From a virus (Duplodnaviria > Caudoviricetes), in IMG/VR virus record IMGVR_UViG_3300005828_000112, positions 1 through 52,128 of that record: a stretch of 52,128 nucleotides of DNA. One strand, 5' to 3'. Positions 8,934 through 32,642 of the stretch are shown in pieces (position 1 is the stretch's first letter; each line of letters begins with the position of its first letter). A program made the translations under genes and the position numbers. The notes under the pieces are model-generated. The model was not told the origin of the DNA, made no database searches, and was given only the letters and a program-made list of their open reading frames with translations.

Positions 8934-10567
8934 CCCCGATGGACGAACGATCGAACAAGCGCCGACGTCGGCGCGGCGCACGTCAGCAGCACCGCGACCA
9001 GATGGCCGACCGCCCCAGCGTCGGGGCCTCGGTGCGTCAGCTGACCGTGGATGATCCTACGACCTGGACATCATCAAGCGCGCTGGCGGCCATCCGTGAG
9101 CACGAGCTCGGCATGTTCCAGTCTAGCGGTGCGCTGATCGACGCGATGGGCCGCGACGACCGGATCCGCGGCTGCGTGCAGACCCGCGTCAATGCGCTTG
9201 TGGCGAAGTCCGGGCTCGACTTCGCGATCGTGCCCCCGAAGGGCGGTTCCCAGCAGCTGGCCGACCGCGTTTCTTCCTGGTGGTCACACGTGCTCGAAGA
9301 TGACGTTCTGCGCGACATGACGCGCGATGTCGTGATGGCTGGCGTCTACATCGGGCGCGTGTCCTGGTCGCGGCTGGCGCGCGAGTGGGTCCCGACGGCG
9401 ATCGAACGCTGGCACACCCAGAACATCCGCTGGGACGAAGACGGGCGGCAATGGATCGTTGATTCGACCGAGGGCCAGATCCCGATCGACCGCGAAGATC
9501 CGAACTGGCTGATCATCGAAGCCAGCAAGGGGCGCGCGTGGATGTCGGGCGCAGTCCGAGCCCTGGGGCTGGCCTACATCATGCGGTCGTTCAACTGGCG
9601 CGACTGGGCGCGGTTCAACGAACGCCACGGGCTGCCCGTCATCACGATCACCGAGCCCTACGGCTTCGACCAGGTCACAAAGGATCGCTTCTACCGGTCG
9701 ATCCGTTCGATGGGCTCCACGGGCGTCGTCAGGCTGCCGAAGAACAACGCTGGGCAAGGCTTCGAGATCGGCTTCCAGGAAGCCAAGGATCGCGCCTTCG
9801 ACACCTTCGGGCAGTTCAGGCGCGACCTGGACATCGCGATCGCCGTTTGCTTGCTGGGGCAGAACCTGACCAGCGAAGCGACCGGCGGATCGCTGGCGCT
9901 GGGACGGGTGCACGACCGCATCCGCCAGGACTACCTCGAGGGCGACAGCGAACTTCTATCCGACGCGCTGCGCCGAGAGCTGATCGTGCGCTGGGCGTCG
10001 TTCAACATCCCAGGCTTCCGCCCTGACGATGCGCCGATCCCGACCTGGAAGACCGAAGTCCCCGAAGATCGAAAGCTGGAAGCGGAAACGCTCAGCAGCG
10101 TCGCTGATGCGATTCGGACGCTGCAGGACACTGGGCAGCCCGTCGACTTCGCGGAGATCTTTCGGCGCACGGGGATCCCGTTGCTGCCCGGGGCGCAGCC
10201 GGTCGCGAATGCGCCAGCGAATGGCCCAGCGGCGGCTGCACAGCGGGCCAGCCTGGCCCACCAGCCAGCGCGGCCGCGCCTGGCATCGGGCGATGATCCG
10301 ACCGCCGCCAGCGGCTTCGTGGAGGGGCAGACCTACGTGGACGACGTCGTCGACGCCGCGCGCGATCGCGTCGGATCGGCCCATGCGCCGTTCGTTCAGA
10401 AGCTGCTGTCGATCGTCGATGCGGCGAGCAGCTATGAAGACGTCCGCCAGATGGTCATCGACGCATACGGCAGCTCCGAACCGCCCGAGCAGGTTCGCGA
10501 CCTGATCCATAAGGCTCTCGTGCTGGCCGACCTGGCTGGGCGCACAGCAGTCGATCAGGACGCATGA
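8930..10567 (+). CDS. Portal protein, Mu gp29/DUF935-like
   Basis: DWARFNERHGLP, LLGQNLTSE..GGSLALGRVH motifs; follows TerL. Confidence 0.93.
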   Translation: MTPMDERSNKRRRRRGARQQHRDQMADRPSVGASVRQLTVDDPTTWTSSSALAAIREHELGMFQSSGALIDAMGRDDRIRGCVQTRVNALVAKSGLDFAIVPPKGGSQQLADRVSSWWSHVLEDDVLRDMTRDVVMAGVYIGRVSWSRLAREWVPTAIERWHTQNIRWDEDGRQWIVDSTEGQIPIDREDPNWLIIEASKGRAWMSGAVRALGLAYIMRSFNWRDWARFNERHGLPVITITEPYGFDQVTKDRFYRSIRSMGSTGVVRLPKNNAGQGFEIGFQEAKDRAFDTFGQFRRDLDIAIAVCLLGQNLTSEATGGSLALGRVHDRIRQDYLEGDSELLSDALRRELIVRWASFNIPGFRPDDAPIPTWKTEVPEDRKLEAETLSSVADAIRTLQDTGQPVDFAEIFRRTGIPLLPGAQPVANAPANGPAAAAQRASLAHQPARPRLASGDDPTAASGFVEGQTYVDDVVDAARDRVGSAHAPFVQKLLSIVDAASSYEDVRQMVIDAYGSSEPPEQVRDLIHKALVLADLAGRTAVDQDA

Positions 10568-12538: not shown

Positions 12539-12731
12539 GAACGGGGCGCAGGCCGAGCTCGCGCGCACGCGCCTGGGTTTACCCCTTCTGTCCGGCCTCG
12601 GGCAGGATCCCAGGAAGCAGCGTAGCTGGCGCCTGAAGGCCGACCCGTTCAAGTGCCGGATCCCGACGTCCGGTGCGGGCGCGTCGCGCATGATCGGTTC
12701 CGGGATTCCCCTCGGCCGATCACGCGCGGCG
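12539..12731. ncRNA. Candidate structured intergenic RNA or 5' leader
   Basis: Nested stems 12539-12650 and a near-perfect long stem 12682-12731 in a ~240-bp non-coding gap. Confidence 0.3.
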
Positions 12732-12772
12732 AACTTCTAACTACGCGGCCGCGCGCCGTGAGAAACGGATCG

Positions 12773-13528
12773 ATGATGGATGTCGCCGAACTACTGATCT
12801 ACGAAGACATCGGCGGATGGTGGGGCATCACAGCCGCCGAGCTCGAGCGCGAACTGCGGCGCGTCGAAGTCCAGGAGATCACCGTCAGGATCAACAGCTA
12901 CGGTGGCGAAGCGTTCGAAGGGATCGCGATCCACAATCTGCTGACGCGCCACGATGCGCGCGTCGTCGTCCATGTCGACGGGATCGCCGCCAGCGCGGCC
13001 AGCATCATCTCGATGGCGGGCGACGAGATCCACATGGCGGCGAACGCCATGATGATGATCCACGAAGCCTGGGGCATGACGCAGGGACCAGCGGAAGACC
13101 ACGAGAAGCACGCCGCCATGCTGCGCAAGCTGAACCGCGCCAGCGGGGAAACCTACGCCGGCCGCACGCAGCGCGAGATCGAAGACGTTCTGAAGCTGAT
13201 GGCCGACGAAACCTGGATGACCGCCCAGGATGCGCTCGCGATGGGCTTCGCGACGCATGTGACGCCCGCGAAATCCGGGGACGATTCGGAATCGGCACTC
13301 GAGGCCATGGTCGCGGCTGCATCGATGTCGCACGTCGCAAACGGCTTCCGCCATGCCCCAGCACCGCTTCAGCGCATGCTCACGCGCGCACATCACCCGA
13401 AGCAAACGCGCGCGGGTGCATCGCTGATCCACAAAGCAAGTCAGCCGCCGAAGACCGCGCGCGAACTACAGCGCACGGCCCTGGGTGGATTGGCTTGCGG
13501 GTTTGCCGCACGGATCGGCGACCCGTAG
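12773..13528 (+). CDS. ClpP-type head maturation protease
   Basis: INSYGG, DGIAASAASII (catalytic Ser), MMIHEAW (His), ETWMTA..A...GFA. Confidence 0.93.
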   Translation: MMDVAELLIYEDIGGWWGITAAELERELRRVEVQEITVRINSYGGEAFEGIAIHNLLTRHDARVVVHVDGIAASAASIISMAGDEIHMAANAMMMIHEAWGMTQGPAEDHEKHAAMLRKLNRASGETYAGRTQREIEDVLKLMADETWMTAQDALAMGFATHVTPAKSGDDSESALEAMVAAASMSHVANGFRHAPAPLQRMLTRAHHPKQTRAGASLIHKASQPPKTARELQRTALGGLACGFAARIGDP

Positions 13529-14808: not shown

Positions 14809-15708
14809 ATGGACATCACACCTTCGGCGATCCGGGCGCTGCGCGCCACGTTCGACGCATCGTTTCGCAGCGCCTACGACATGGCGCCGATCTTCTATCC
14901 GAACCTCACGACGACGGTTCCTTCCAGCGGGCCGCAGAACAACTACGGCTGGATGGCCCAGCTTCCCAAGATGCGCGAATGGCTCGGGCCGCGCGTGTTC
15001 AACAACCTGATCACGCACAACTACGTGCTCGAAAACAAGGAATGGGAGCTCTCCTTCGAAGTGCCGCGGAAGGACATCGAAGATGACAACCTGGGGATCT
15101 ACCGGGAGCTGTCGGCTGCGCATGGCGAAGCGGCGCGAAAGCATCCCGACGACCTGCTGACGCTGCTTCTGCAGAACGGCAACAGCGAGCTGTGTTTCGA
15201 TGGCCAGTTCTTCTTCGACACCGATCACCCAGTGGCGCCGAAGGACGCATCGCAGGGCACCTACAGCAACTACCGGACGGGCAAGGCGCTGAGCGATTCG
15301 AACTACGAAGAGCTGCGCGCCGCGATGCTCGGCTTCAAGGGTGACGGCGGGCACGTGCTGGGCGTGTTGCCGAACCTGCTGGTGGTCCCGCCAGCTCTCG
15401 AGAGCACCGCGAAGAAGATCGTGATGCTGTCGAAGAACGCCGCGGGCGCCGACAACCCAAACTACGGGACCGCCACGGTCATGATGATCCCCGAGCTCGC
15501 GGGTCAAGACACGACCTGGTACCTGCTGAGCACGCAGCGCCGGATCAAGCCCTTCGTCTGGCAGACCCGCCGCGCGCTGAACTTCGTCATGAAGAACGCG
15601 CTGACTGACGAGTCCGTGGTCTACGATCGCGTGTTCCATTTCATGGCGGATGCCCGCTACAACATGGGCTACACGCTGCCCTTCCTGGCCCTGAAAGCGG
15701 TCGCCTGA
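14809..15708 (+). CDS. Major capsid protein, Mu gpT-like
   Basis: YGWMAQLPKMREWLG, CFDGQFFFDTDHPV, LVVPPALE, WYLL...IKPFVWQ; CAGGAG RBS. Confidence 0.95.
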   Translation: MDITPSAIRALRATFDASFRSAYDMAPIFYPNLTTTVPSSGPQNNYGWMAQLPKMREWLGPRVFNNLITHNYVLENKEWELSFEVPRKDIEDDNLGIYRELSAAHGEAARKHPDDLLTLLLQNGNSELCFDGQFFFDTDHPVAPKDASQGTYSNYRTGKALSDSNYEELRAAMLGFKGDGGHVLGVLPNLLVVPPALESTAKKIVMLSKNAAGADNPNYGTATVMMIPELAGQDTTWYLLSTQRRIKPFVWQTRRALNFVMKNALTDESVVYDRVFHFMADARYNMGYTLPFLALKAVA

Positions 15709-16193: not shown

Positions 16194-16595
16194 ATGGCCT
16201 ACATCACGATCGCCGAACTGGATCGGCTGGGCATCACACCCGACGCGCTGTGCGACGTCAGCAACACCGCGAAGCTGGAAGCGATCGAAGCGGCCAGCAG
16301 CGAAGCGGACTCCTACATTTCTTCGCGGTATGTGACACCCCTGGCGACCGTCCCGCTTGTCGTGAAGTTTCACGTCGCGCGTCTGGCTAGCGCGATGCTG
16401 ATCGACGGTCGCGGGCGCCAGGTCGATGGCGACGATCGCACGATCGACATGATGCGCGCAGCGGCGATCAAGTTTTTCGAGCGCGTATCGTCTGGCGTAG
16501 CGACGCTGGGACCCACCGAAGTCGCGCCAGCGGTGATCGAATCACCGGACGTCGACAGCGACGACGATCGCGGCTGGTCGCGGGGATCGGTGTGA
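16194..16595 (+). CDS. Head-tail adaptor, Mu gp36/DUF1320-like
   Basis: MAYIT..EL, AIEAASSEADSYI..RY..PL..VP, AIKFFERVSSG..L. Confidence 0.88.
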   Translation: MAYITIAELDRLGITPDALCDVSNTAKLEAIEAASSEADSYISSRYVTPLATVPLVVKFHVARLASAMLIDGRGRQVDGDDRTIDMMRAAAIKFFERVSSGVATLGPTEVAPAVIESPDVDSDDDRGWSRGSV

Positions 16596-18048: not shown

Positions 18049-18569
18049 TGGACGCGGAGCGATGCATGGTCACGAAGGCGAAGAAGGCGACAAGAACGCC
18101 CGCGAAGCGGGCACCGAAGAAGACTTCGACCGGGGGCAAGCGCAAGCCAGCACCAAACGGTGTGGATCCATCTGGGATCCTGCAGCTTGTCGAAGCGGGC
18201 AATGACTACGACATCGCGGGGCCCGACGTGCGCGACGGGATGGTCTACCTCAGCAGCCAGGACCTGGCCGCGCTTGAACTGGCGCGCATGCGTCGCCAGA
18301 CGGAGCACGACCGCGCGGAGCTGATCGAACTTCGGGAAGCCCAGGCGAAGGCCAGCTACGAAGCCGCGCAGCGGGCCTATGCAGCGACGCGCGGCGCGCT
18401 CGAGAATGACCGCAAGCGAAGCCGCCTGGATCTGGCTGCGCAGGTGCGCGCCTATGACGAACTGAAGGAGGCCATGGCGAAGCGCTACGCGATCGACTTC
18501 GACCAGGTCACCTATGACGACAAGACCGGCAAGCTGTTCCTCGGTGATGCGCCCATCGCCGCGGGCTGA
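18048..18569 (+). CDS. Hypothetical coiled-coil protein
   Basis: TGATG coupling; Lys-rich N-terminus and long heptad region. Confidence 0.65.
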   Translation: MDAERCMVTKAKKATRTPAKRAPKKTSTGGKRKPAPNGVDPSGILQLVEAGNDYDIAGPDVRDGMVYLSSQDLAALELARMRRQTEHDRAELIELREAQAKASYEAAQRAYAATRGALENDRKRSRLDLAAQVRAYDELKEAMAKRYAIDFDQVTYDDKTGKLFLGDAPIAAG

Positions 18570-18619
18570 ACGTAACCAAGTGCCCGCCAGACGGGCCCAG
18601 ATCAGGGGGATGAGTCCAG

Positions 18620-19828
18620 ATGGCACTACGTAGACCATTGTTCCAGCACGCGACCGGCTACTTCGAAGAGCTCGGGTCCGACGGCATCGACATGAACAGC
18701 CAGGCGATCTCGAATCTCCTGGATCCTGTTCTGGCGCAGGATGCCGCGACCAAGGCCTACGTCGATGCAGTCGCGACTGGGCTCGATCTGAAGGCTTCAG
18801 TGCGCGTGCTGCTGGGCGACACCAGCGGCTACACGGCAGCAGGCTCTGGCGTGGGCGCCACGCTGACCAGCGCCGACGACAACACCGCGAACAACACACA
18901 TGACGGCGTGCTGCTGGTCGTGGGAAACCGCGTGCTCGTCGCCCAGACCGGCGGCAACCTGACGACGCCAGACGCCGACAATGGCATCTACGTCGTGACC
19001 ACGCTGGCGGACGGCGCGGGTCAGGAGCTGGTTCTCACCCGCGCCAGCGACTTCGACGTCAACGCGGAAGTGACCGCGGGGGCCTTCACGTTCGTCACCG
19101 AGGGCACGACGTACGCCGATACCGGCTGGGTGCTGGTCACGAACGATCCGATCACCGTCGACACGACCGCGCTTCAGTTCAGTCAGTTCTCGTCGGCGAC
19201 CGCGAAGAGTTACGGCGCTGGTCTGTCCGACACCGCGAACGTGATCGATGTCGAGCTCGACACCGCAGCGGATGCCCAAAGCGCCGGTTCCGGAGGCGGC
19301 AGCTCCGGTCTGGAGTTTGATGCAGCTGGCGCGGCTGGTCAGCTGCGCGCAGCGGTCAACGCGACCGCGGGCCTCCAGCGCACGGGTACCGGCCTCGGGG
19401 TCAAGCTGAACGGGACCACGCTGGCAAGCGCTGCGGGCGGCCTATCGGTCGATCATTCGCCGCGCGTGCAGGATGGCTACGTGTCAGCCGAAGCGCTGAC
19501 GCAGTATCACCCGGTCGCGATGTCCACGACCGTGGATCGCGTGCAGCAGGCGCGCGGGAATGATGATGCTCGAGCCAAGTGCATCGGACTCGGCATCACG
19601 ACTGCAGGCGCCGCAGCCGTTGCTGTCGAAGTCGTAAAGGATGGCGTGGTCGCTGGCGCCATCGCTGGCGCGACCGCTGGCGATATCTTCTACATCGCAG
19701 CAGCGGGCGGACTGAGCGCCGCGAACACGCCACCAGCTGGCGGAAACCGCGTGATCCAGGTCGGCATCGCGAAGAACGCGACCGACCTGATCGTGCAGAT
19801 CATCGACTATGGCAAAAAGGCCGCCTAG
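18620..19828 (+). CDS. Fibre-like virion protein (head or tail fibre) with C-terminal cement-like domain
   Basis: QDAATKAYVD fibre motif, KASVRV..GNRVLV..Q..NGIY..RA.DFD domain, Gly/Ala-rich. Confidence 0.8.
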   Translation: MALRRPLFQHATGYFEELGSDGIDMNSQAISNLLDPVLAQDAATKAYVDAVATGLDLKASVRVLLGDTSGYTAAGSGVGATLTSADDNTANNTHDGVLLVVGNRVLVAQTGGNLTTPDADNGIYVVTTLADGAGQELVLTRASDFDVNAEVTAGAFTFVTEGTTYADTGWVLVTNDPITVDTTALQFSQFSSATAKSYGAGLSDTANVIDVELDTAADAQSAGSGGGSSGLEFDAAGAAGQLRAAVNATAGLQRTGTGLGVKLNGTTLASAAGGLSVDHSPRVQDGYVSAEALTQYHPVAMSTTVDRVQQARGNDDARAKCIGLGITTAGAAAVAVEVVKDGVVAGAIAGATAGDIFYIAAAGGLSAANTPPAGGNRVIQVGIAKNATDLIVQIIDYGKKAA

Positions 19829-19881
19829 TTAGTCGGCCCGGCTTGCACAGTCACCTTTGGTGACACGCAAAAAGGGCGCGA

Positions 19882-19957
19882 TGCAGGGTAGGCAAGCGGT
19901 CAAGCCTCCGCGCTAAACACGCGGTGATCGCCGGTTCGATTCCGGCCCCTGCAGCCA
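19882..19957 (+). tRNA. tRNA with anticodon AAA (nominally Phe) on an atypical Gln-like body
   Basis: Acceptor TGCAGGG/CCCTGCA, G73, encoded CCA; D arm GGCA-AGCGGTCA-AGCC; anticodon arm CCGCG-CTAAACA-CGCGG; T arm GCCGG-TTCGATT-CCGGC; 76 nt. Confidence 0.9.
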
Positions 19958-19973
19958 TTGAACGGAGCAGCCC

Positions 19974-20267
19974 ATGTCCATCGGTCCAGATCGCGTTCGC
20001 CCGCTGAAGCTCGAAGACACGGGGACGGGCACGCAGACCGATCTTTTCCCGACGTCGCTGAACAAGAACGAAGACGCGATCGAATGTCGCGGCGTCGTGA
20101 TGCAGGACGCCTCGAGCAATGACGCGCTGGTGTACGTGGCGCGCGAAGGCAACGATCTGATCTTCCGCGATATCACGACTGGGATCTCCTACACGCTGAC
20201 CGACCTAGTCGGCGGCGCAGCCATCGATCCGGGCTTCCGAAGGCATTTTCTCCTGATGGGCGCATGA
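19974..20267 (+). CDS. Small virion-associated protein
   Basis: GGAG RBS; ends in FLLMGA, a C-terminal motif seen in phage structural gene blocks. Confidence 0.7.
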   Translation: MSIGPDRVRPLKLEDTGTGTQTDLFPTSLNKNEDAIECRGVVMQDASSNDALVYVAREGNDLIFRDITTGISYTLTDLVGGAAIDPGFRRHFLLMGA

Positions 20268-20485
20268 ACATGACCGCTGACGAAAAGCAGGCCGCACTGG
20301 CGACGAAGGCGCAGACGATGCTGGCATCGCTGCGCGAGACGATCGGCGAAGTCGCGGGCGACCTGAAGGGCGCGCCGCAGGTGCGCGTGGTCGTGCCGAA
20401 GTCACTCTGGCCCTGGGATGACGTGGACGAAATGGAATTTGCCGACGGCAGCGGCGGCGCGTTCAAGTACGTCAGGAGCCGCTGA
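20264..20485 (+). CDS. Hypothetical protein
   Basis: ATGA and TGATG coupling at its two ends. Confidence 0.65.
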   Translation: MNMTADEKQAALATKAQTMLASLRETIGEVAGDLKGAPQVRVVVPKSLWPWDDVDEMEFADGSGGAFKYVRSR

Positions 20486-20814
20486 TGGCCGAAGCCCTGA
20501 AGGTGCTCGGTCAGCTGGACATCCCAGCGACCACGCTGAGCACGCTTTACACCGTGCCCGCTGCGACCAGCGCGACGGTGTCATCGCTGGTCATCGCGAA
20601 CCGAACGAGCTCAAGTAAGACCTTCCGCGCGTCCGTGGCTGTCGCGGGCGCTGCCGACGATCCGAAGCAATACCTGTTTTACGATGTGCAGCTCGGCAAG
20701 AACGAAAGCTTCAGCGCGACGCTGGGCCTCACGCTGGGCGCGGCTGACGTCGTGCGCGTCTATGCCAGCGGCGCTGGCCTCAGCGCAAACCTGTTCGGCG
20801 TCCAGGTGACCTGA
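20485..20814 (+). CDS. Small beta-sandwich virion protein
   Basis: KVLGQ...TLYTVPAA...SSLVIAN...LGLTL...VRVYAS...LFG. Confidence 0.75.
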   Translation: MAEALKVLGQLDIPATTLSTLYTVPAATSATVSSLVIANRTSSSKTFRASVAVAGAADDPKQYLFYDVQLGKNESFSATLGLTLGAADVVRVYASGAGLSANLFGVQVT

Positions 20815-22043
20815 TGGCTGCTGGATCGACGACGACCCCGGTGCGGGTCAAGGATGACAACGGCGACACCCAGGGGTCGGCGGCGAACCCGCTTCGCACT
20901 GATCCGACCGGGTCGACGACGCAGCCCATCAGCGCTGCTTCGCTGCCCCTTCCGGCTGGGGCGGCGACCGAAGCGACGCTGGCTGCCATCAGCACGAACA
21001 CGCCCGCCGTCGGTCAAACGACCATGGCGGCGAGCTCACCCGTCACCATCGCCAGCGACCAAACGGCGGTCGCGTCGAAGAATGCCGCGGCCAGCCAGGT
21101 CGACGGGCACAGCTCGAGCATCGGCGCGACCACGGACGCCGACACCGCGAACACCGTCATCGGACGGCTGAAGCAGGTGATCACCCGTCTGGCCGGCGGC
21201 TTGCCCGCTGCCCTGGTGGGGGGGCGCCTAGATTCGAACATCGGCGCATGGCTCGGAAGCACAGCGCCCACGGTCGCGCAGAAGGCGATGGCTGCATCCG
21301 TGCCAGTCGTGGTCGCCAGCGACCAGACTGCGGTCGCGTCGAAGAACGCCGCGGCCAGCCAGGTCGACGGGCACAGCTCGAGCATCGGTGCGACCACGGA
21401 CGCCGACACAGCGAACACCGTCATCGGGCGGCTGAAGCAGCAGGTGACGAAGCTGGCGGGCGGCCTTCCCGCCGCGCTGGTCGGCGGACGGCTCGATATC
21501 AACCTGGGATCGTGGCTGGGCGCGACAACGCCGACCGTCGGTCAAAAGGCAATGGCGGCGTCGATCCCCGTGGCGATGGCGTCGAACCAAACGGCGACAC
21601 CCACGAAAATCGAAGACGGTCAGGGCTCGGGCCGCCTTGCTGCTGTCGATTCGTCCTATCGTCTGCTGGTCAGCGCGAACGCGACCGTGATCCCGCCCGC
21701 TTCGGTCGCTGTCGAAGTCGAAGCGATCAGCAGTCTCACCGGAACAGCGGACAGCGTTTACGTCGTGCCTTCGGCGAAGCAGCTCACGATCACGCGCTTC
21801 GCTGGTGGATCCGAAGGTAACTCGGGCAAGGTGTCGAAGGTTTCGCTGTTCTATGACCCTGCAGGCACCGGCACCGGGATGACGTTGATCCGTGCGATGT
21901 ATCTCGGGACGACGAACTGGGAATTTGGGCTCGACTACAAAGTGCTAGGCGACGGGACGAAGGCGATCCGCATGCGGCGCGAACGCCTGGACGGCGCAGC
22001 TGATGAAGTCGCGGGCTTCTGGTCTGGCTTCCGGGATGTGTGA
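20814..22043 (+). CDS. Virion fibre-like protein with 88-aa tandem repeats
   Basis: LPLPAGAATEATL motif, internal repeats, C-terminal YVVP beta domain. Confidence 0.8.
   Translation: MAAGSTTTPVRVKDDNGDTQGSAANPLRTDPTGSTTQPISAASLPLPAGAATEATLAAISTNTPAVGQTTMAASSPVTIASDQTAVASKNAAASQVDGHSSSIGATTDADTANTVIGRLKQVITRLAGGLPAALVGGRLDSNIGAWLGSTAPTVAQKAMAASVPVVVASDQTAVASKNAAASQVDGHSSSIGATTDADTANTVIGRLKQQVTKLAGGLPAALVGGRLDINLGSWLGATTPTVGQKAMAASIPVAMASNQTATPTKIEDGQGSGRLAAVDSSYRLLVSANATVIPPASVAVEVEAISSLTGTADSVYVVPSAKQLTITRFAGGSEGNSGKVSKVSLFYDPAGTGTGMTLIRAMYLGTTNWEFGLDYKVLGDGTKAIRMRRERLDGAADEVAGFWSGFRDV
21001..21595 (+). repeat. 264-bp (88-codon) tandem repeat, about 2.25 copies
   Basis: Units start near 21001, 21265 and 21529; GCCAGCGACC at 21051 and 21315. 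Confidence 0.92.
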
Positions 22044-24954: not shown

Positions 24955-26391
24955 ATGAGCATCCCGAAGCAAACACTGACGATCCAGGATCCGGGGCTCG
25001 GACTGGTCGAAGCAGCGACCACGATCCCGCTGTTCATGGGCCCCAGTGAAAAGGGCACGGTCAACGCGATCGCGACCGTCAGCAACAAGCGCCAGGTCGT
25101 GGACACCTGGGGCCAGGGGCCATTGTCCGAGCACATGTGCCGCGCGCTGGACGAAGCGGGCGGCCCGATCCTGGGCATGCGGATCACGGGCGACGTCGCA
25201 GGCGCAGCTGGCGCGGTGACGAAGGTCGCGGCGGGCTCGAGCACGGGCACCGTCACGGTCGCGCAGGCGCCCTATGACGCTTACGAAGTCATCGCGACGA
25301 TCGTGACCACTGGCGGCCTGGGGGCCGCGACGTTCACGTATTCACTGGACGATGGCCGCACGGTTTCCCCCGTGCTGACGGTGCCCGCTGGCGGCGTCTA
25401 TTCCATCCCAGGCACGAACCTTCAGATCACGTTCGTTCCCGGCGCTGGCCCTACGCTGTTCGAAGCGGGCGACACCCACTCCTTCGACTGCACGGCCCCG
25501 TATTTCAGCACGACCGAGCTCGGGAACGCCTTCGACGTCGTCGACGTCTACACATCGCAGATCGACTTCTTCGTGCTCTGCGGGCGTCCGGCGGATTCGA
25601 CCGCGGGCGCGACGATGCTGGCATCGCTGCAGACCCGGCTGGCCGGCCTCGAGTCCGCGCAGCGCTACATGGGCGCGATCATGGACGTCGGGATCGACAC
25701 TACGGCGAACGTCATCACGAATGTCGTTCCGACCACGGGCGTTCGGGTGTGCCCGACCTACGGGACCGCGGACATGGCGAGCTCGAAGCCGATCACTGGC
25801 TGGGGGACGCCGAAGCTTCCAGCCACGGTGCTGATCGCCGCGCGCGCGCACAGCGAGCTGATCAGCACCGATCTGGCACGCACTGCATCGGGCGCGCTGG
25901 ATGGCGTCGTCGAGATCAGCCACGACGAGTTTCTGACGGAGGAGCTGGATCAGCACAAGATCAGCACGCTGCGCACCTGGCCGAACGTCGCGGGCTTCTA
26001 CATCACGAACGCCCGGATGAAGTCGTCGCTGGGATCGGATTTCCTGTACTGGCAGCATCGCCGGGTGATGGACGTGGCCTGCAGGCGGACGGTCCAGTCG
26101 CAGTTCGTGTTCAGCTCGTCCGGGCTGCGCACGAACGCAGACGGGACCATCGACACGCGCGACGCCGTCCGTATCGAAAACACGGTGAAGGATGGCTTGC
26201 GCGCGGAGCTGGTCGATCCCCAGAACGCAGAAGGCACGCAGGGCCATGTGTCGGCTCTGAACTTCACGGTGACCCGGACGAACAACGTGCAGGTCACAAA
26301 CGAAGTGCTGACCGCGGTCGCTGTTCGACCGCTGGGCTACGCGAAGACTCTGACGACCGAGATCGGTTTCACGACCGACGTGGGGGGCTGA
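24955..26391 (+). CDS. Tail sheath protein (DUF2586-like)
   Basis: I.DPGLG N-terminus, GFYITNARM...GSDF.Y..RRVMD.A, C-terminal VRPLGYAK.L..EIGF. Confidence 0.88.
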   Translation: MSIPKQTLTIQDPGLGLVEAATTIPLFMGPSEKGTVNAIATVSNKRQVVDTWGQGPLSEHMCRALDEAGGPILGMRITGDVAGAAGAVTKVAAGSSTGTVTVAQAPYDAYEVIATIVTTGGLGAATFTYSLDDGRTVSPVLTVPAGGVYSIPGTNLQITFVPGAGPTLFEAGDTHSFDCTAPYFSTTELGNAFDVVDVYTSQIDFFVLCGRPADSTAGATMLASLQTRLAGLESAQRYMGAIMDVGIDTTANVITNVVPTTGVRVCPTYGTADMASSKPITGWGTPKLPATVLIAARAHSELISTDLARTASGALDGVVEISHDEFLTEELDQHKISTLRTWPNVAGFYITNARMKSSLGSDFLYWQHRRVMDVACRRTVQSQFVFSSSGLRTNADGTIDTRDAVRIENTVKDGLRAELVDPQNAEGTQGHVSALNFTVTRTNNVQVTNEVLTAVAVRPLGYAKTLTTEIGFTTDVGG

Positions 26392-26874: not shown

Positions 26875-26914
26875 TCGATGACGCGCCCGCCATCGGGCGA
26901 TGAAAGGAACGAAG

Positions 26915-27289
26915 ATGCAGATCGTTGAACGGACAAAAGAAGGCGGTTTGACCCCGGACAAGATCCTCGAGCTGAAGGGAAAGCACGGCGCCGATCTGGT
27001 GCGCCTGGTGCACGCTGGCCATGTGCTGGTGTTCCGAAAGGCCTCGATGCCTGAATGGTCCAGGTTCGTGCAGCAGATCGGAACCGACGACAAGCGCCAC
27101 AATCGGCTCTCGGTGATGAAGCGGCTTTGCCAGGACTGCTTCGTGTATCCCGAAGGCGCCGATGGGCGGCCCGACATCGCGACGCTGAACAGCTTCTTCG
27201 ATCAGTACCCTGGGGCGATCTCGATCGCGATGGGCGAAATATCGGAGATCTCCGGCGGGGGCGAAACGATCGAAACGGGAAAACTCTAG
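26915..27289 (+). CDS. Tail assembly chaperone (G-like)
   Basis: AAAGGA RBS before ATG 26915; between tube and tape measure; ends in a slippery sequence. Confidence 0.85.
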   Translation: MQIVERTKEGGLTPDKILELKGKHGADLVRLVHAGHVLVFRKASMPEWSRFVQQIGTDDKRHNRLSVMKRLCQDCFVYPEGADGRPDIATLNSFFDQYPGAISIAMGEISEISGGGETIETGKL

Positions 27290-27444
27290 AGCGGCTGCTT
27301 CGTAACCCGTTGTTGGGGGCAGCCGCGATCATGAGCCTGGCTGATCGCGATGCAGATGAAGAATCCCGCCTGCATGGCGCGATGCTCGTCTGGTCGCTGA
27401 TCGTCGATGTTCATGTGCTTCGCACCGTCTACGTCCAAGGGTGA
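27277..27444 (+). other. Programmed -1 frameshift site G GGA AAA and GT-like extension
   Basis: X XXY YYZ heptamer at 27277-27283 just before the TAG; -1 frame is open to TGA 27444, 1 nt before the tape measure start. Confidence 0.85.
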
Positions 27445-27445
27445 T

Positions 27446-29365
27446 GTGCCGAAGAACAGCAACAAAGCGGATTTCATCGTTCGACTGCTCGATCGCTTGT
27501 CGCGACCGGGGAAGGCGATTTCGCGCGCGCTGGGCAAGATCGCCATGGTCGAAGACCGCGTTCAGACCGAATCGCGCGCGACCGAACGAGCCCTGAACAA
27601 GGTCGGTCTGCGCGCTGCAGCGATGGGCGCGAACGCGACGCGCGGCGCGGCTGGCCTGAACAAGGTGAGCGCCGCCATGCTGGCGGCAAGACGCGCCGCG
27701 GTCGTCAGCGATGCTGGTGGTCGCCAGCGCGTGCGCGGCCGCTTCGTGACGCCTCGAGGCGTCGAACGTCGCAACATTCGCAACGCGCGCGTTGCTGGTG
27801 CGCCGGTCGCCGCGGCCGCCCCTGGTATCGCTGGCCAGGTCGGCGGCTTTCGCGCAGCCATCCAGGCTGTGCGGCGCTGGAACGATGCCACGGGCGAAGC
27901 GCGCCGAAAGCAGCTTGCGCTCAAGCGCGCGTTCGAAGACACACATTTCGGCCGCCTGATCGGCGGCTTCAAAACGGGCGGCAAAGCTGTCGCGCGGCTG
28001 TCGCTGTCGCTGGCGAAGATGGCTGCGCAGGCTGTCGCGACCGCTGGCGCGCTGTTCGGGGTCGGCGCGGCCGCGCTGGCCTTCAAAACGGTTCAGGCGG
28101 GCGCGTTCGGCGAACGGTCGCGCAAGGCACTGGCGCTGCTGACCGGGTCAGCAGATGAAGGTAACCGCGCCTTCGAGCTCGCCCGCAATACGGCGAAGGA
28201 CCTGGGCCTCGATGTTCAGGACGTCGTGAAGCAGTTCATCAAACTACGCGCGGCGCAATTCACGATCGGCGAAACCGAAAACCTGGTGAAGCTCGGCGCC
28301 GACCTGCAGGCCATCGGCGCCAGCGCCGAACAAGTCGACCGGGCTATCCTGGCGATCACGCAGGTGAAGGCGAAGGGCCGGCTTCAAAGCGAAGAGCTGC
28401 TTCAGCTCAGCGAAGCGGGCGTTTCCATGGCGCTGGTCTTCCGCGAGCTGGAAAAGCAGACGGGCAAGAGCACATCAGGCGTCCGCAAGCTGCTGCAGGC
28501 GGGCAAGGTGTCGGGCGATCAAGGCGTGCTCGCGATTCAGAACGCGATCCTTCACAAGGTCGGGATCGAACGCGCTGGCGATGCTGGGCGGCAGTTCGCC
28601 GATGAAACGCTCACCGGCATGGTGAATCGATTGAAGACACTTCCCGGGCGCCTTCTGCTGGACCTGGGGGAGCTGATCGACACGAAGCAGGTGCGCAAGA
28701 TCGTGAATCAGCTCGAGGGCGCCCTGCGCAACATCGACACCAAGACGCTGACCCGCGGGATCAACGCGGTGATCAAGGCGTTCGGTCGCGCCATCGACTT
28801 CGGGATCTCGTTTGCCGAGGGCTTCGGATCCAAGATCCCGGACATCGTGACCGCGATGGAAGACTTCGGGCGCGCGGTCGATCCCACGCAGACGCGCGAC
28901 TGGGGCCGCGTGCTGGGCGAAGAGCTCGGCATCGCGCTTGAAAAGGGCTTGCGGCTGACCGAAAAGATCCTCGAGCTGGTCGACGCGTTGCGCGATGCGG
29001 CGAAGGAAGCGGGGCGTCTGCATCGTTTGCTGTTCGGGGATGCATCCAGCAGGCCCCCCCCGCTGCCGACCGAAATGGCGGCGATCCAGCAAGGTCTGCC
29101 AGCGGCTGGTGCGATGGGCGGCGACATCGCGGGCGCTTCGATGCTGTTCACTGACCCCGAGCGGTTCTTCTCAACGATCTTTTCGACCCCGACCCCAACC
29201 CCGCGCCCGCAGCAGCCGCAGGCCAGAACCGTCACGGTCGCGCCGTCCATACAGGTCAACGTCACGGGCGGTCAGGATGCGCAGCGCACGGCGGAAGCGG
29301 TGCGCGAAGGCGCACGCAAGGCACTGGAAGACTTCGCAGATGGACCCATGCGGGAGGCATTCTGA
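27446..29365 (+). CDS. Tape measure protein
   Basis: AITQVKAKGRLQSEELLQLSEAGV tape-measure motif; Ala/Gly-rich helical; GTG 27446 with AAGGG RBS. Confidence 0.9.
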   Translation: MPKNSNKADFIVRLLDRLSRPGKAISRALGKIAMVEDRVQTESRATERALNKVGLRAAAMGANATRGAAGLNKVSAAMLAARRAAVVSDAGGRQRVRGRFVTPRGVERRNIRNARVAGAPVAAAAPGIAGQVGGFRAAIQAVRRWNDATGEARRKQLALKRAFEDTHFGRLIGGFKTGGKAVARLSLSLAKMAAQAVATAGALFGVGAAALAFKTVQAGAFGERSRKALALLTGSADEGNRAFELARNTAKDLGLDVQDVVKQFIKLRAAQFTIGETENLVKLGADLQAIGASAEQVDRAILAITQVKAKGRLQSEELLQLSEAGVSMALVFRELEKQTGKSTSGVRKLLQAGKVSGDQGVLAIQNAILHKVGIERAGDAGRQFADETLTGMVNRLKTLPGRLLLDLGELIDTKQVRKIVNQLEGALRNIDTKTLTRGINAVIKAFGRAIDFGISFAEGFGSKIPDIVTAMEDFGRAVDPTQTRDWGRVLGEELGIALEKGLRLTEKILELVDALRDAAKEAGRLHRLLFGDASSRPPPLPTEMAAIQQGLPAAGAMGGDIAGASMLFTDPERFFSTIFSTPTPTPRPQQPQARTVTVAPSIQVNVTGGQDAQRTAEAVREGARKALEDFADGPMREAF

Positions 29366-31478: not shown

Positions 31479-32642
31479 ATGGCATCGCTGACCGTCCGAC
31501 AACTACGAACGCCCGTCACGAAGGACGAAGCGCTTCAGATCCTGATCGACCAGCTGGCCGCGCTGGGCTTCTCGTCGACCAGCTGGCAAGCGGGCAGCGT
31601 CCAACGGTCCATGCTGGAAACGTTCGCCCAGGTCTTCGCCGACGAAACCGAAGGGGTCGCGGACATCACCGAAGCTGGCTTCAATGAGACATCGTCGGGC
31701 GGCTACCTGACGCTGCTGTCCGCAAGCCACTACGACAACGATCGCGAAGAAGCCGGCTACACCGAAGGGCTGATCGAGCTCGTGGCAGCCCCGGGCTCCG
31801 GGCCCTATTCGGTCATCGCCAGCCAGCTGGTGGCTGTCGATTCGGTCAACGGATTCACGTACCGAAACACGGGCGCTTTCACGATTCCCGCCGGCGGTAC
31901 CGTCAGCGCGACCTTCAAGGCGGAGACTGCGGGCGCCGATCGTGACGTCGCGCCGAACACGATCCTCGAGCTGCAGACGCCACTGGCGGGCGTGACGATC
32001 AATAACCCGATCCCGTCGGGCGCGACGTCATGGATCACGGTCAACGGGTCGGACGAAGAAACCGACGACGAGCTGCGCGAACGAAACCGGGCCAAATGGG
32101 CCCTGCTGTCGCCTGCGCGCCCGTCGCTGGCCTATGCGTCGCTGGCCCGCGAAGCGGCTGCATCGGTCACCCGCGCCTTCGTGGACGACCAGAACCCGCG
32201 CGGGCCTGGGACCGTCGACGTGTACATCGCGGGCGCGTCTGGCGAGCTATCCAGCGCGGTCGTTTCGACCGTTCAGGACTATCTCGACGGGGTCCCCGAT
32301 GGCGTGGGCCGGGTCGCCGTTGGCGCCGATGTGCAGGTGTTCAGCGCGCTGCGGCGCGACGTCACGATCCAGGCGAAGGCCTACATCCTGGCGGCGAACA
32401 ACGATGCGACCACGCAAGCGCTGATCGTCGCGGCGCTGAACGACTACTTCCGAGCTCTGGACGTCGGCGGATACAAGCGCGACGTCGACGCGAAGGGTGT
32501 GATCGTCTTCGGTGAGCTGTATCGGGCGTTTCTGCAGGTCGGGGTCCGTAACGTCGCGTTCACGACGCCCCTGGCTGACATCACGATGGAACGCAACGAA
32601 GTCGCGATCCCGGTGTTTTCGCTGTCGTGGGAGTCGGTCTGA
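31479..32642 (+). CDS. Baseplate J/Mu gp47-like protein
   Basis: AETAG, GSDEETDDELRER, RGPGTVDVYI. Confidence 0.92.
   Translation: MASLTVRQLRTPVTKDEALQILIDQLAALGFSSTSWQAGSVQRSMLETFAQVFADETEGVADITEAGFNETSSGGYLTLLSASHYDNDREEAGYTEGLIELVAAPGSGPYSVIASQLVAVDSVNGFTYRNTGAFTIPAGGTVSATFKAETAGADRDVAPNTILELQTPLAGVTINNPIPSGATSWITVNGSDEETDDELRERNRAKWALLSPARPSLAYASLAREAAASVTRAFVDDQNPRGPGTVDVYIAGASGELSSAVVSTVQDYLDGVPDGVGRVAVGADVQVFSALRRDVTIQAKAYILAANNDATTQALIVAALNDYFRALDVGGYKRDVDAKGVIVFGELYRAFLQVGVRNVAFTTPLADITMERNEVAIPVFSLSWESV

What the first reader, a model, noticed from the sequence alone, without database searches (positions are those of the whole stretch)
19882..19957. Intact phage tRNA with an AAA anticodon, C37 and a Gln-like body, inside the virion gene block
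Seen: a 76-nt cloverleaf with paired acceptor, anticodon and T stems and the tertiary contacts kept (U8-A14, G15-C48, G18G19, C32-A38, U33, TTCGA, encoded CCA), so it does not look decayed. The loop is CU-AAA-CA. Established: A34 anticodons are very rare in bacteria apart from tRNA-Arg(ACG), position 37 is almost always a purine, and bacterial tRNA-Phe has G34 and A73. This tRNA has U1-A72, G2-C71, G73 and an A13.A22 D-stem mismatch, as in tRNA-Gln; U1-A72 is also the GatCAB determinant. Inference: it may insert a non-Phe residue at UUU codons, act as an anticodon-nuclease-resistant or uncharged decoy against host defence, or serve as an RNase P processing signal in the 36-kb late transcript. 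UUU is rare in the late genes (1 of 15 Phe codons in the MCP, hand count), so simple codon supply for virion genes is an unlikely explanation.
Basis: partly seen in the sequence, partly recalled or inferred. Interest (0 to 1): 0.85.

Follow-up and report, generated by a model that had tools for sequence, protein, structure and literature searches.

The report
Phage initiator-type tRNA with AAA anticodon
A phage carries an intact transfer RNA gene that descends from phage copies of the start-codon (initiator methionine) tRNA, but its anticodon and neighbouring identity bases have changed, so it can no longer work as a methionine tRNA and its present job is unknown.

Summary
Window 19882-19957(+) is a well-formed 76-nt tRNA (ARAGORN; Rfam 55.9 bits) with loop CU-AAA-CA, U1-A72, G73 and an encoded CCA. 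It is not an assembly error: an independently assembled contig of a 97.6%-identical strain carries the same tRNA.

The "Gln-like body" reading is superseded. Its T arm plus 3' acceptor strand occurs in 34 IMG/VR stretches. Thirty of these are tRNA(CAU) with A72 and mostly a 1x72 mismatch, which is the initiator hallmark. Related copies occur in Erythrobacter and Mesorhizobium phages. U1-A72, the A13.A22 mismatch and a pyrimidine at 37 all occur within this family. The states found only in the window tRNA are AAA (34, 36), C37 and G73, and every helix is kept.

Five relatives with the same flanking genes lack a tRNA at this spot; one has an HNH endonuclease there. It is therefore a lineage-specific insertion.

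It matches no alphaproteobacterial Phe, Gln, Asn, Cys or CAU profile. UUU is rare (56 of 408 Phe codons), and no gene needs a UUU start.

Best reading (about 0.35): a remoulded tRNA still under structural selection, perhaps weakly Phe-charged and reading UUU. A dead copy (0.33) and an uncharged decoy or processing element (0.2) remain open.

The parts
19882..19957 (+). 76-nt tRNA gene with anticodon AAA, C37, U1-A72, G73 and an encoded CCA. It is a remoulded member of a phage initiator-like tRNA(CAU) family.
   Evidence: ARAGORN. Rfam 55.9 bits. Its own covariance model scores it 111.4 bits and finds no second copy. The family is shown.
19829..19881 (+). 53-nt spacer between the stop codon of the upstream gene and the tRNA 5' end. 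It holds a 6-bp hairpin with a 3-nt loop at 19850-19864. No promoter-like or terminator-like site was found on this strand.
   Evidence: Sequence read. The promoter scan of 18500-21000 found no promoter-like site, and its only two terminator-like sites lie on the minus strand, outside this spacer.
18620..19828 (+). Upstream virion gene, 402 aa. It matches PHROG tail-fibre, head-decoration and unknown-function families, and no Pfam family.
   Evidence: PHROG matches phrog_30390 at 2e-35, phrog_8745 and phrog_2647. No Pfam match. Used as the synteny anchor.
19974..20267 (+). Downstream 97-aa gene of unknown function. Its ATG lies 16 nt after the tRNA 3' end and is preceded by GGAG.
   Evidence: Homologues follow the 402-aa homologue in L224, L225, L226, L228 and L229.

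Best explanation
What it is (high confidence, about 0.8): an intact tRNA gene that descends from a family of initiator-type tRNA(CAU) genes carried by phages of Alphaproteobacteria. It sits as a lineage-specific accessory insertion in a variable intergenic slot of the late virion operon, on the same strand as the virion genes.

Compared with that family, the states seen only in this copy lie at 34 and 36 (CAU to AAA), 37 (to C) and 73 (A to G). These are the decoding positions and the discriminator base. All four helices and the conserved tertiary nucleotides are kept. It therefore can no longer be a Met or fMet tRNA.

How it most likely works (inferred, about 0.35 for the whole chain):
1. It is co-transcribed with the virion genes.
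2. It is cut out by RNase P and 3' trimming, with the CCA already encoded.
3. It is kept by selection as a folded tRNA.
4. If it is charged at all, PheRS is the only synthetase whose anticodon determinants (A35, A36, plus U20 and U59) are present, and charging should be weak because G34 and A73 are missing.
5. It then reads UUU. With C37 it should escape TadA and MiaA, so A34 stays unmodified and reads mainly U-ending codons.
6. Because its acceptor end (U1-A72, G2-C71, C3-G70) is initiator-type, it may be formylated and act in the P site rather than as an efficient elongator.

Shown: the gene, its integrity, its descent, its lineage-specific position, and its identity in a second strain. Inferred: transcription, processing, charging, decoding and any benefit to the phage.
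For: Integrity: 20 of 21 stem pairs are standard, and Rfam scores it 55.9 bits.

Descent:
- The 24-letter T arm plus 3' acceptor pattern finds 34 IMG/VR stretches. Thirty are ARAGORN tRNA(CAU), one more is a CAU tRNA cut by a contig end, and 3 are structurally degenerate.
- In the 30 tRNAs, A72 is 30 of 30, N1 is C 14, A 10, U 6, and N73 is A 28, U 1, C 1 with no G. The anticodon is CAU in 30 of 30. N37 is A 24, G 3, U 3 with no C.
- The D and anticodon stems of the family covary. Nine of 9 pairs show changes on both sides, and 93.9% of cells pair, against 32-44% when partners are slid. The window tRNA conforms.
- L447 shares the window tRNA's D loop and its A13.A22 mismatch (aligned).
- Related copies are found in Erythrobacter phages vB_EliS_R6L and ZS04 and in Mesorhizobium phage vB_MseS-P1.

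Lineage-specific insertion: five loci with both flanking genes have no tRNA. At this spot L224 carries an HNH endonuclease gene, and L225 has a different sequence in which no tRNA is found.

Same sequence in a second strain.

Literature, passages seen:
- Phe identity rests on G34, A35, A36 and A73, plus U20 and U59 in E. coli (PMC9976931).
- The E. coli U1 initiator mutant is still formylated well and is a poor elongator, and natural initiators with U1:A72 exist (PMC6265465).
- Initiator anticodon mutants start at their cognate non-AUG codons (PMC11744186).
- TadA is blocked by every tested change at 32, 37 or 38, and unmodified A34 reads mostly U-ending codons (abstract; both PMC11066159).
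- E. coli pheV-AAA is functional (preprint 10.64898/2026.05.15.725136).
Against: - No homologue carrying AAA, C37 and G73 together was found, so there is no independent evidence of selection on the new loop.
- The A73-to-G change moves away from Phe identity. G34, called the strongest PheRS determinant in T. thermophilus, is also missing. Charging may be negligible.
- No phage gene in the window needs a UUU start. All 6 TTT codons with a Shine-Dalgarno-like motif are either internal to genes with canonical starts or lie antisense to a gene.
- UUU is rare and evenly spread: 56 codons among 61 called genes.
- Three structurally degenerate family members exist, so copies of this family do die.
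- Zero changes in 76 nt at 2.4% divergence is not significant. About 1.8 changes would be expected, and the adjoining roughly 360 nt are also identical.
- The argument that the unique states sit at identity positions is post hoc.
- The central part of the tRNA (positions 8-31 and 39-48) is as similar to alphaproteobacterial tRNA-Gln (best 26 of 34) as to the family (best 26 of 34). Descent therefore rests mainly on the acceptor stem and T arm.
- The host is unknown.
Confidence: 0.35

Rival explanations
1. Recently inactivated copy. A phage initiator-like tRNA(CAU) gene lost its function through a few substitutions and has not yet decayed. It has no role beyond being passively cut out of the transcript.
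For: - It is a singleton. No other AAA/C37/G73 member turned up in IMG/VR. The loop pattern gave only L181 and L197, which are unrelated bodies, and L197 falls below the Rfam threshold. The 3'-half pattern gave only CAU members.
- The changes erase Met identity without building a coherent new one. G73 is not a Phe determinant.
- Three of 34 family stretches are degenerate.
- There is no codon demand.
- ANN tRNAs for split codon boxes (such as AAA) are mostly low-scoring predictions in bacteria. Only 5 of 132 ANN genes at 70 bits or more are of this kind (section read, preprint 10.64898/2026.05.15.725136).
Against: - All helices and all conserved tertiary nucleotides are intact, while two otherwise invariant anticodon positions have changed.
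- Under uniform neutral decay, hits in the 42 stem positions would be expected alongside three hits in a 7-nt loop.
- The degenerate family members that were found are broken in structure, unlike this one.
- The gene occupies a compact operon, and a second strain carries it unchanged.
Confidence: 0.33
2. Non-decoding RNA. It would be an uncharged tRNA-shaped molecule serving one of two roles. One is a decoy or sponge for host factors that target initiator tRNA, such as VapC-type anticodon-loop nucleases or acetyltransferase toxins. The other is an RNase P punctuation or stability element that separates the messages of the upstream and downstream virion genes.
For: - The derived states remove the determinants for MetRS while keeping the initiator-type acceptor end and the L-shape.
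- Loop positions 32, 33, 37 and 38 vary within the family while CAU is fixed. This fits pressure from loop-specific nucleases as proposed for phage tRNAs (first of three parts of the text read, PMC10264068). That paper names tRNA-fMet as the VapC-LT2 target.
- Distant capsid relatives L077, L102 and L106 also carry initiator-like tRNA(CAU) next to the capsid gene, so tRNAs inside the virion operon recur.
- A hairpin lies 17 nt before the expected RNase P site.
Against: - No nuclease, toxin or host is identified.
- RNase P needs only the acceptor and T arms, so a pure processing role does not explain the intact D and anticodon arms.
- A decoy for an initiator-specific enzyme would be expected to keep the CAU loop.
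- Five relatives manage without any element at this spot.
Confidence: 0.2
3. A Gln-type tRNA is charged through the Gln pathway (GlnRS, or GluRS followed by GatCAB) and inserts Gln or Glu at UUU codons.
For: U1-A72, G73 and A13.A22 are the alphaproteobacterial tRNA-Gln pattern: 31 of 31, 30 of 31 and 31 of 31. The D loop equals that of the L136 tRNA-Gln. Amidotransferases use U1-A72 (passage seen, PMC9976931).
Against: - The Gln profile scores it 15.2 bits against 69.5 or more for members.
- The 11-24 pair is G-C, not the C-G seen in 31 of 31 Gln tRNAs.
- The same features occur in the phage initiator-like family, from which the acceptor stem and T arm derive.
- Gln and Glu enzymes depend on anticodon bases that AAA lacks.
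Confidence: 0.03
4. Sequencing or assembly error that produced an apparent AAA/C37 loop in an ordinary tRNA.
For: None found.
Against: An independent contig from another run and strain has the identical tRNA. At least three loop positions plus position 73 differ from every family member.
Confidence: 0.01

Closest known systems
Bacterial initiator tRNA-fMet
   Same: The acceptor end is of the initiator type: A72 with a weak 1-72 pair, G2-C71 and C3-G70. These are the formyltransferase determinants named in PMC6265465 (passages seen). Pairs 29-41 and 31-39 are G-C. The 11-24 pair is purine-pyrimidine; that this is an initiator feature is recalled, not from a call.
   Different: The anticodon is AAA, not CAU. 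Position 73 is G, not A. Position 37 is C. Pair 30-40 is C-G, so the run of three G-C pairs is broken. Position 1-72 is a U-A pair rather than a mismatch.
Phage-encoded initiator-like tRNA(CAU) genes: the IMG/VR family, with copies in Erythrobacter phages vB_EliS_R6L and ZS04 and Mesorhizobium phage vB_MseS-P1
   Same: Identical T arm and 3' acceptor strand, with the matching 5' strand. The D loop and the A13.A22 mismatch are shared with L447 and L449. The hosts are alphaproteobacterial, and copies sit inside phage genomes.
   Different: All 30 family tRNAs keep CAU. None has G73 or C37.
Rare bacterial Phe-tRNA(AAA) genes and the E. coli pheV G34A strain (preprint 10.64898/2026.05.15.725136; passages and section 14 read)
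   Same: The same anticodon. That work shows a tRNA with an AAA anticodon can be expressed and can rescue loss of a tRNA-Phe gene.
   Different: Those are tRNA-Phe bodies with A37 and A73, and the authors infer that A34 is converted to inosine. Here the body is not Phe-like, and C37 should block TadA (PMC11066159, section 4.1 read). Phage tRNA(AAA) calls with a purine at 37 also exist.
Engineered initiator tRNA anticodon mutants (tRNAini with GAA and 30 other anticodons, PMC11744186, passages seen; i-tRNA AAC preprints, abstracts only)
   Same: An initiator-type body carrying a non-CAU anticodon. Such tRNAs start translation at the cognate non-AUG codon.
   Different: Those are laboratory constructs. 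No natural use of a UUU start is seen in this phage.
Phage tRNAs with anticodon-loop changes proposed to evade host anticodon nucleases (PMC10264068, first of three parts of the text read)
   Same: A phage tRNA with a non-canonical loop. Loop positions 33, 37 and 38 vary within its family.
   Different: In that model the anticodon is retained so the tRNA still replaces the host one. Here the anticodon itself has changed. The host tRNAs and nucleases are unknown.
Bacterial tRNA-Gln
   Same: U1-A72, G73, the A13.A22 mismatch and the D-loop sequence.
   Different: The anticodon, the 11-24 pair, the acceptor stem, the T arm and the overall profile score of 15.2 bits.

Membership tests
tRNA (Rfam RF00005) | Cloverleaf with conserved tertiary nucleotides, scoring above the gathering threshold | tested here: met
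   55.9 bits against a threshold of 29, over the full model 1-71. ARAGORN also calls it.
Bacterial tRNA-Phe | Anticodon G34 A35 A36 | tested here: not met
   A34 replaces G34, while A35 and A36 are present. The determinants come from PMC9976931. The loop is CTGAAAA or TTGAAAA in 28 of 28 reference tRNAs.
Bacterial tRNA-Phe | Discriminator A73 and a Phe-type body | tested here: not met
   It has G73 and U1-A72. The reference set has A73 in 27 of 28 and G1-C72 in 28 of 28. The anticodon-masked Phe profile scores it 6.4 bits against 69.5 or more for members.
Bacterial tRNA-Gln | U1-A72, G73 and an A13.A22 D stem | tested here: met
   All three are present. In the reference Gln tRNAs they occur in 31 of 31, 30 of 31 and 31 of 31.
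Bacterial tRNA-Gln | YUG anticodon and a Gln-type body overall | tested here: not met
   The anticodon is AAA. The Gln profile scores 15.2 bits against 69.5 or more for members. The D stem is GGCA/AGCC, against GCCA/AGGC in 31 of 31.
Bacterial initiator tRNA-fMet | Anticodon CAU (Met identity) with A73 | tested here: not met
   It has AAA and G73. The family has CAU in 30 of 30 and A73 in 28 of 30.
Bacterial initiator tRNA-fMet | No strong Watson-Crick pair at 1-72, with G2-C71 and C3-G70 (formyltransferase determinants) | tested here: inconclusive
   It has a U1-A72 pair, G2-C71 and C3-G70. The E. coli U1 mutant is reported as still well formylated, and natural initiators with U1:A72 are reported (PMC6265465). 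Six of 30 family members have U1.
Bacterial initiator tRNA-fMet | Three consecutive G-C pairs at 29-41, 30-40 and 31-39 | tested here: not met
   The window tRNA has GC/CG/GC. In the family, 6 of 30 have GC/GC/GC and 24 of 30 have G-C at both 30-40 and 31-39.
Phage initiator-like tRNA(CAU) family (defined here) | Shared acceptor stem (N1-GCAGGG with CCCTGCA, A72) and T arm | tested here: met
   The pattern was taken from the window tRNA, so its own match is by construction. The informative result is that 30 of the 34 other stretches carrying it are tRNA(CAU) with the complementary 5' strand.
Phage initiator-like tRNA(CAU) family (defined here) | CAU anticodon | tested here: not met
   The window tRNA has AAA; the family has CAU in 30 of 30. 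It is a member by descent, not by function.
Nuclease-evading phage tRNAs (van den Berg et al. 2023) | A loop change at the cleavage or recognition site of a host anticodon nuclease, compared with the host isoacceptor | not testable with these tools
   The host, its tRNAs and its nucleases are unknown. The supplementary tables of that paper could not be opened.

The most novel reading that the evidence does not exclude
A natural initiator-type tRNA that a phage has re-aimed from AUG to UUU. It would be charged with Phe and formylated through its initiator-type acceptor end, then used in the ribosomal P site. This would give the phage a private start codon, or a way to start translation when the host initiator tRNA is under attack. 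The initiator ancestry, the retained formyltransferase determinants, and the fact that a P-site tRNA depends less on position 37 make this conceivable. No UUU-started gene was found in the 76%-complete record.
Probability: 0.05. Interest if true: 0.9.

Novelty: new variant of a known kind. Interest (0 to 1): 0.45.

Why it matters
No non-CAU member was found among the tRNAs of this initiator-like family. All 30 intact phage relatives found here keep CAU.

An intact copy whose anticodon, position 37 and discriminator base have all changed is a natural example of tRNA remoulding starting from an initiator. If it is active, it would show that phages can re-purpose initiator tRNAs. The new role could be an odd-codon reader, a non-AUG starter, or a decoy in the conflict over host tRNAs. 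It would also give a natural counterpart to engineered orthogonal initiators.

If it is dead, it is a clean snapshot of how a phage tRNA gene dies. It is also a warning that isotype calls made from the anticodon alone ("tRNA-Phe") can mislead.

The side result is useful for annotation. There is a family of initiator-like tRNA(CAU) genes in alphaproteobacterial phages, with variable loop positions 33, 37 and 38, and its copies in three cultured phage records carry no tRNA annotation.

Tried and rejected
- BLAST of window 19000-21000 against cultured phages found no match.
- A tRNA-only BLAST gave only short partial hits. One of them led to the Mesorhizobium phage tRNA(CAU).
- I looked for a homologous tRNA in capsid relatives and found none with AAA. 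In IMG/VR, 80 loci of 113 relatives were returned, and 4 hold a tRNA. In GTDB genomes, 5 of 31 loci hold a tRNA call.
- BLAST of the tRNA against 5 alphaproteobacterial genomes gave nothing better than E 0.014.
- A single-sequence covariance model was run against 151 alphaproteobacterial genomes. The top 30 loci are 14 CAU, 7 Gln, 4 Asn, 2 Phe and 1 each of Cys, Val and Arg, at 56-66 bits against a self score of 111. No cellular donor emerged.
- UUU start codons: every TTT with a Shine-Dalgarno-like motif in coding-like frames was listed. None sits at a gene start.
- A shifty tRNA for programmed frameshifting: the tail-chaperone slippery site is G GGA AAA at 27277-27283, not UUU-based, and the window holds a single T6 run.
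- Own promoter: none was found in 18500-21000.
- RNA contig coverage: in runs X2 and X3 the contigs stop at 19860 and 19887 and resume at 20016 and 19971. This would fit excision of the tRNA.
- tRNA-related enzymes in the phage: the Pfam scans of 69 ORFs found only QueC and a QueD-like protein, with no link to A34.
- The whole records behind L224 and L226-L228 could not be searched because they are not held.
- My last IMG/VR scan used a pattern mis-specified by one base. It found one non-tRNA chance match.
- A literature search for "Phe AAA" with tRNA, phage and anticodon found 0 papers.
- Supplementary tables that may list phage loop variants (PMC10264068) and natural Phe-tRNA(AAA) genes (preprint 10.64898/2026.05.15.725136) could not be seen.
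Full report
**1. The observation**

The window is one IMG/VR virus record of 52,128 bases. It is classed as linear, with a CheckV completeness of 76%.

ARAGORN finds a single tRNA, at 19882-19957 on the + strand, with anticodon AAA. Rfam RF00005 matches 19882-19954 at 55.9 bits against a gathering score of 29, and flags no non-standard pair.

- U1-A72, G2-C71, G73 and an encoded CCA
- D stem GGCA/AGCC with A13.A22
- U8, A14, G15, GG in the D loop, C48
- anticodon stem CCGCG/CGCGG with loop C32-U33-AAA-C37-A38
- T loop TTCGATT

The hand count of 1 TTT among 15 Phe codons in the capsid gene is correct.

**2. Not an artefact**

Four estuary metatranscriptome runs hold parts of 19300-20500. In run X1 a 588-nt contig covers 19674-20257 with 14 differing letters, which is 97.6% identity. 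The 9 differences listed away from its ends lie at 19705-19732 and 20168-20222. The tRNA and about 360 flanking bases are identical.

So a second strain, assembled independently, has the same AAA/C37 tRNA. Zero changes in 76 nt is not significant evidence of constraint, because about 1.8 would be expected.

**3. Context**

Gene content:
- Large terminase 7518-8933, portal 8930-10567, protease 12653-13528, major capsid 14809-15708, adaptor 16194-16595.
- A 402-aa gene at 18620-19828 matching PHROG tail-fibre, head-decoration and unknown-function families.
- The tRNA, then a 97-aa gene at 19974-20267.
- Tail genes: sheath-like DUF2586 24955-26391, tape measure 27407-29365, baseplate J 31479-32642.

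All of these lie on the + strand. No promoter-like site lies near the tRNA. The phage is about 65% G+C.

Distant capsid relatives (46% identity or less) occur mainly in Alphaproteobacteria.

**4. A lineage-specific insertion**

Relatives of the upstream 402-aa protein were found in 7 metagenome loci, at 41-70% identity. Five of them also encode the downstream 97-aa homologue.

None of the 7 has a tRNA by ARAGORN or by a covariance model built from the window tRNA.

The gap between the two genes varies:
- about 60-80 nt in L226, L228 and L229
- about 220 nt in L225, the closest relative with data. Its gap sequence differs from the window's, and I read it by eye as a hairpin followed by a small ORF
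- about 865 nt in L224, holding an HNH_3 endonuclease gene

The site is therefore a variable slot for accessory or mobile inserts. In this lineage the insert is the tRNA.

**5. Codon demand**

In 61 called genes (14,327 codons), TTT occurs 56 times, TTC 352 times and TTA 4 times. UUU is rare and spread over many genes. Plain codon supply is an unlikely role.

**6. What the body resembles among cellular tRNAs**

A single-sequence covariance model was searched over 151 alphaproteobacterial genomes. The top 30 hits score 56-66 bits against a self score of 111.4. They comprise 14 CAU tRNAs, 7 Gln, 4 Asn, 2 Phe and 1 each of Cys, Val and Arg. By a MAFFT alignment of these 30, identities are 42-50 of 76.

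I then built anticodon-masked profile HMMs from alphaproteobacterial tRNAs:

| Profile | Number of tRNAs | Score of the window tRNA (bits) |
|---|---|---|
| Asn | 31 | 13.9 |
| Gln | 31 | 15.2 |
| Phe | 28 | 6.4 |
| Cys | 18 | 14.4 |
| CAU | 13 | 21.2 |

True members score 47-78 bits, and cross-isotype means are 4-45 bits. Loci of the unpublished genome G045 were left out.

The tRNA therefore belongs to none of these five cellular isotype families, and least of all to Phe.

U1-A72 occurs in 31 of 31 Gln and 31 of 31 Asn tRNAs, and in 0 of 28 Phe. G73 occurs in 30 of 31 Gln. A13.A22 occurs in 31 of 31 Gln. But they do not make the whole body Gln-like.

**7. The decisive result: its family**

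The T arm plus 3' acceptor strand of the window tRNA, with one free loop position, occurs in 34 IMG/VR stretches.
- Thirty are ARAGORN tRNA(CAU), of which 20 are distinct sequences.
- One more is a CAU tRNA cut by a contig end.
- Three are structurally degenerate.

Features of the 30:

| Feature | Distribution in the 30 family tRNAs | Window tRNA |
|---|---|---|
| Anticodon | CAU 30 | AAA |
| N72 | A 30 | A |
| N1 | C 14, A 10, U 6 | U |
| N73 | A 28, U 1, C 1 | G |
| N37 | A 24, G 3, U 3 | C |
| N33 | U 25, C 5 | U |
| N38 | C 18, A 10, U 2 | A |
| G-C at both 30-40 and 31-39 | 24 of 30 | no (GC/CG/GC) |

So 24 of 30 have a 1x72 mismatch.

A mismatch at 1-72, together with 2:71 and 3:70, and G-C pairs low in the anticodon stem, are the hallmarks of bacterial initiator tRNA (passages seen in PMC6265465). 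This is a family of initiator-like phage tRNAs.

In an alignment of 21 members with the window tRNA, all 4 D-stem pairs and all 5 anticodon-stem pairs show changes on both sides. 93.9% of cells pair, against 32-44% when partners are slid. It is a real family under structural selection, and the window tRNA conforms to it.

Named relatives are the Erythrobacter phages vB_EliS_R6L and ZS04 and the Mesorhizobium phage vB_MseS-P1 (82-86% identity to a family member). The window tRNA shares its last 30 bases at 93% with the Mesorhizobium copy, which ARAGORN calls tRNA(CAU) with A1xA72.

Other links to the family:
- L447, L452 and L460 are identical in three metagenomes. They share the window tRNA's D loop and A13.A22, and have a loop with C33 and U37.
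- L449 also has the A13.A22 D arm.
- L003 has the same anticodon stem as the window tRNA, with a CAU loop.
- Capsid relatives L077, L102 and L106 carry initiator-like tRNA(CAU) beside the capsid gene.

So U1-A72, A13.A22 and even a pyrimidine at 37 are family traits.

Caveats:
- The family was fished with a pattern taken from the window tRNA.
- In the unforced central part (positions 8-31 and 39-48), the tRNA is as similar to alphaproteobacterial tRNA-Gln (best 26 of 34) as to the family (best 26 of 34).
- An unrelated phage tRNA, called Glu by ARAGORN, has the same D arm.

Descent therefore rests mainly on the acceptor stem and T arm.

**8. What is derived in the window tRNA**

Against all family members, its private states are A34 and A36 (CAU to AAA), C37 and G73.

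These are the anticodon, its 3' neighbour and the discriminator base. They are the positions that set aminoacylation identity and decoding. Meanwhile U8, G10, A14, GG, A21, C32, U33 and all helices are kept.

The three degenerate relatives are broken in structure instead. This looks more like a change of identity with the fold kept than like random decay. The argument is post hoc, and the nearest relatives are only about 78% identical.

**9. How unusual each oddity is**

Among 672 distinct phage tRNA calls that came as by-catch in IMG/VR loci:
- 22 have a pyrimidine at 37. Ten of these are a recurring tRNA-Asp(GUC) with U37.
- 10 have a non-ACG A34.

A loop-anchored pattern found tRNA(AAA) with a purine at 37 in 12 of the 80 loci returned, of 111 matched.

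The exact loop CUAAACA was found in only 2 ARAGORN tRNA(AAA) calls among 58 stretches:
- L181 scores 47.1 bits.
- L197 sits inside a 26-tRNA array and falls below the Rfam threshold.

L251 is a well-scoring tRNA (55.4 bits) with loop CUAAGCA on a short-variable-arm body.

In bacteria, a 2026 preprint (section 14 read) counts 695 non-ACG ANN tRNA genes in GtRNAdb. Nineteen percent serve split codon boxes, and half of those are Phe-AAA or His-AUG. Only 5 split-box genes remain at 70 bits or more.

So each oddity alone is rare but known. The combination, on an initiator-type body, is what is new.

**10. Mechanism**

Met identity is lost.

Of all synthetases, only PheRS finds part of its set. The review names G34, A35, A36 and A73, plus U20 and U59 in E. 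coli (passages seen in PMC9976931). The window tRNA has A35, A36, U20 and U59. It lacks G34, called the strongest determinant in T. thermophilus, and A73.

Gln and Glu enzymes need anticodon bases that are absent.

Further points from the literature:
- TadA was blocked by every tested change at 32, 37 or 38 (section 4.1 read). Unmodified A34 reads mostly U-ending codons (abstract). Both are from PMC11066159. So A34 should stay unmodified and read UUU.
- That MiaA needs A36-A37-A38 is recalled, not from a call.
- The E. coli initiator U1 mutant remains well formylated and is a poor elongator (PMC6265465).
- Initiator anticodon mutants start at their cognate codons (PMC11744186).

The tRNA might therefore act in the P site. 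But no gene in the window needs a UUU start, and the tail-chaperone frameshift site is G GGA AAA, not UUU-based.

**11. Verdict**

The gene is real, intact, recently inserted, and a remoulded descendant of phage initiator-like tRNA(CAU). I hold this at about 0.8.

Whether it is active cannot be settled from sequence. My odds are:
- weakly Phe-charged UUU reader or starter, still under selection: 0.35
- dead copy: 0.33
- uncharged decoy or processing element: 0.2
- Gln-type recoding: 0.03
- sequencing or assembly error: 0.01

It is a new variant of a known kind (a phage-encoded tRNA). Interest is moderate, at 0.45.

Noticed in passing
window 46486-47507 (and possibly 47495-48121): QueC (E 2.2e-52) and a QueD-like 6-pyruvoyl-tetrahydropterin synthase (E 6e-25) sit in a lower-G+C stretch (0.585 over 46001-48000). 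This looks like part of a 7-deazaguanine pathway, of the kind phages use for DNA modification (recalled). No transglycosylase was seen in the window.
   Followed up: partly
window 27277-27283, within ORF 26900-27289 and overlapping ORF 27055-27444: A classical -1 frameshift heptamer, G GGA AAA, lies just before the stop codon of the putative tail assembly chaperone. The -1 frame stays open to 27444, just ahead of the tape measure gene.
   Followed up: partly
PP232116.1 6210-6284 (L165 1456-1530); KY006853.1 61555-61631; PV416405.1 8406-8482: Sequences related to the initiator-like tRNA(CAU) family carry no tRNA annotation in three cultured phage records. ARAGORN calls the Mesorhizobium phage vB_MseS-P1 copy tRNA(CAU); it lies inside a CDS annotated as a transcriptional repressor. 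The matches in the two Erythrobacter phages have no feature annotated.
   Followed up: partly
IMG/VR loci L178, L201, L206, L241, L248, L288, L291, L294 and others: A recurring class of phage tRNA-Asp(GUC) has U37 (loop YUGUCUA). It accounts for 10 of the 22 pyrimidine-37 calls among 672 by-catch phage tRNAs. tRNA-Glu(UUC) with U37 also occurs, in L216 and L257.
   Followed up: no
L251 4566-4640: A well-formed phage tRNA (Rfam 55.4 bits) has loop CUAAGCA (A34, C37, anticodon AAG) on a short-variable-arm body that is not Leu-like. It parallels the window tRNA's CUAAACA loop.
   Followed up: partly
L447 7901-7973, L452 1427-1499, L460 1302-1374: An identical initiator-like tRNA(CAU) with C33 and U37 (loop CCCAUUC) and three G-C pairs in the anticodon stem occurs in three different metagenomes. 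Non-canonical loop bases therefore seem to be kept in this family.
   Followed up: partly
L224 5398-6204: An HNH_3 homing-endonuclease-like ORF (268 aa) occupies the same intergenic slot that holds the tRNA in the window.
   Followed up: yes
window 19674-20257 (run X1 contig): Differences from the variant strain cluster in the two outer parts (19705-19732 and 20168-20222), while the central 435 nt including the tRNA are identical. This could reflect a recombination mosaic or a chimeric contig.
   Followed up: no
L102 9904-9978, L106 9902-9976, L077 9367-9444: Prophages or phages with a distantly related capsid protein (in Chelatococcus, Bosea and one IMG/VR contig) carry initiator-like tRNA(CAU) genes directly beside the capsid gene. 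Their 1-72 positions are G1xA72 or C1xA72.
   Followed up: partly
window 5795-7093 and 45821-46489: Two DNA methyltransferase genes are present: a ParB-N/N6_N4_Mtase fusion and an MT-A70 family enzyme.
   Followed up: no
L436 13004-13027, L439 4529-4552, L461 5348-5371: Three stretches keep the family's T arm and acceptor 3' strand but have disrupted or expanded 5' parts, and ARAGORN makes no call. They look like decayed or interrupted family members.
   Followed up: no
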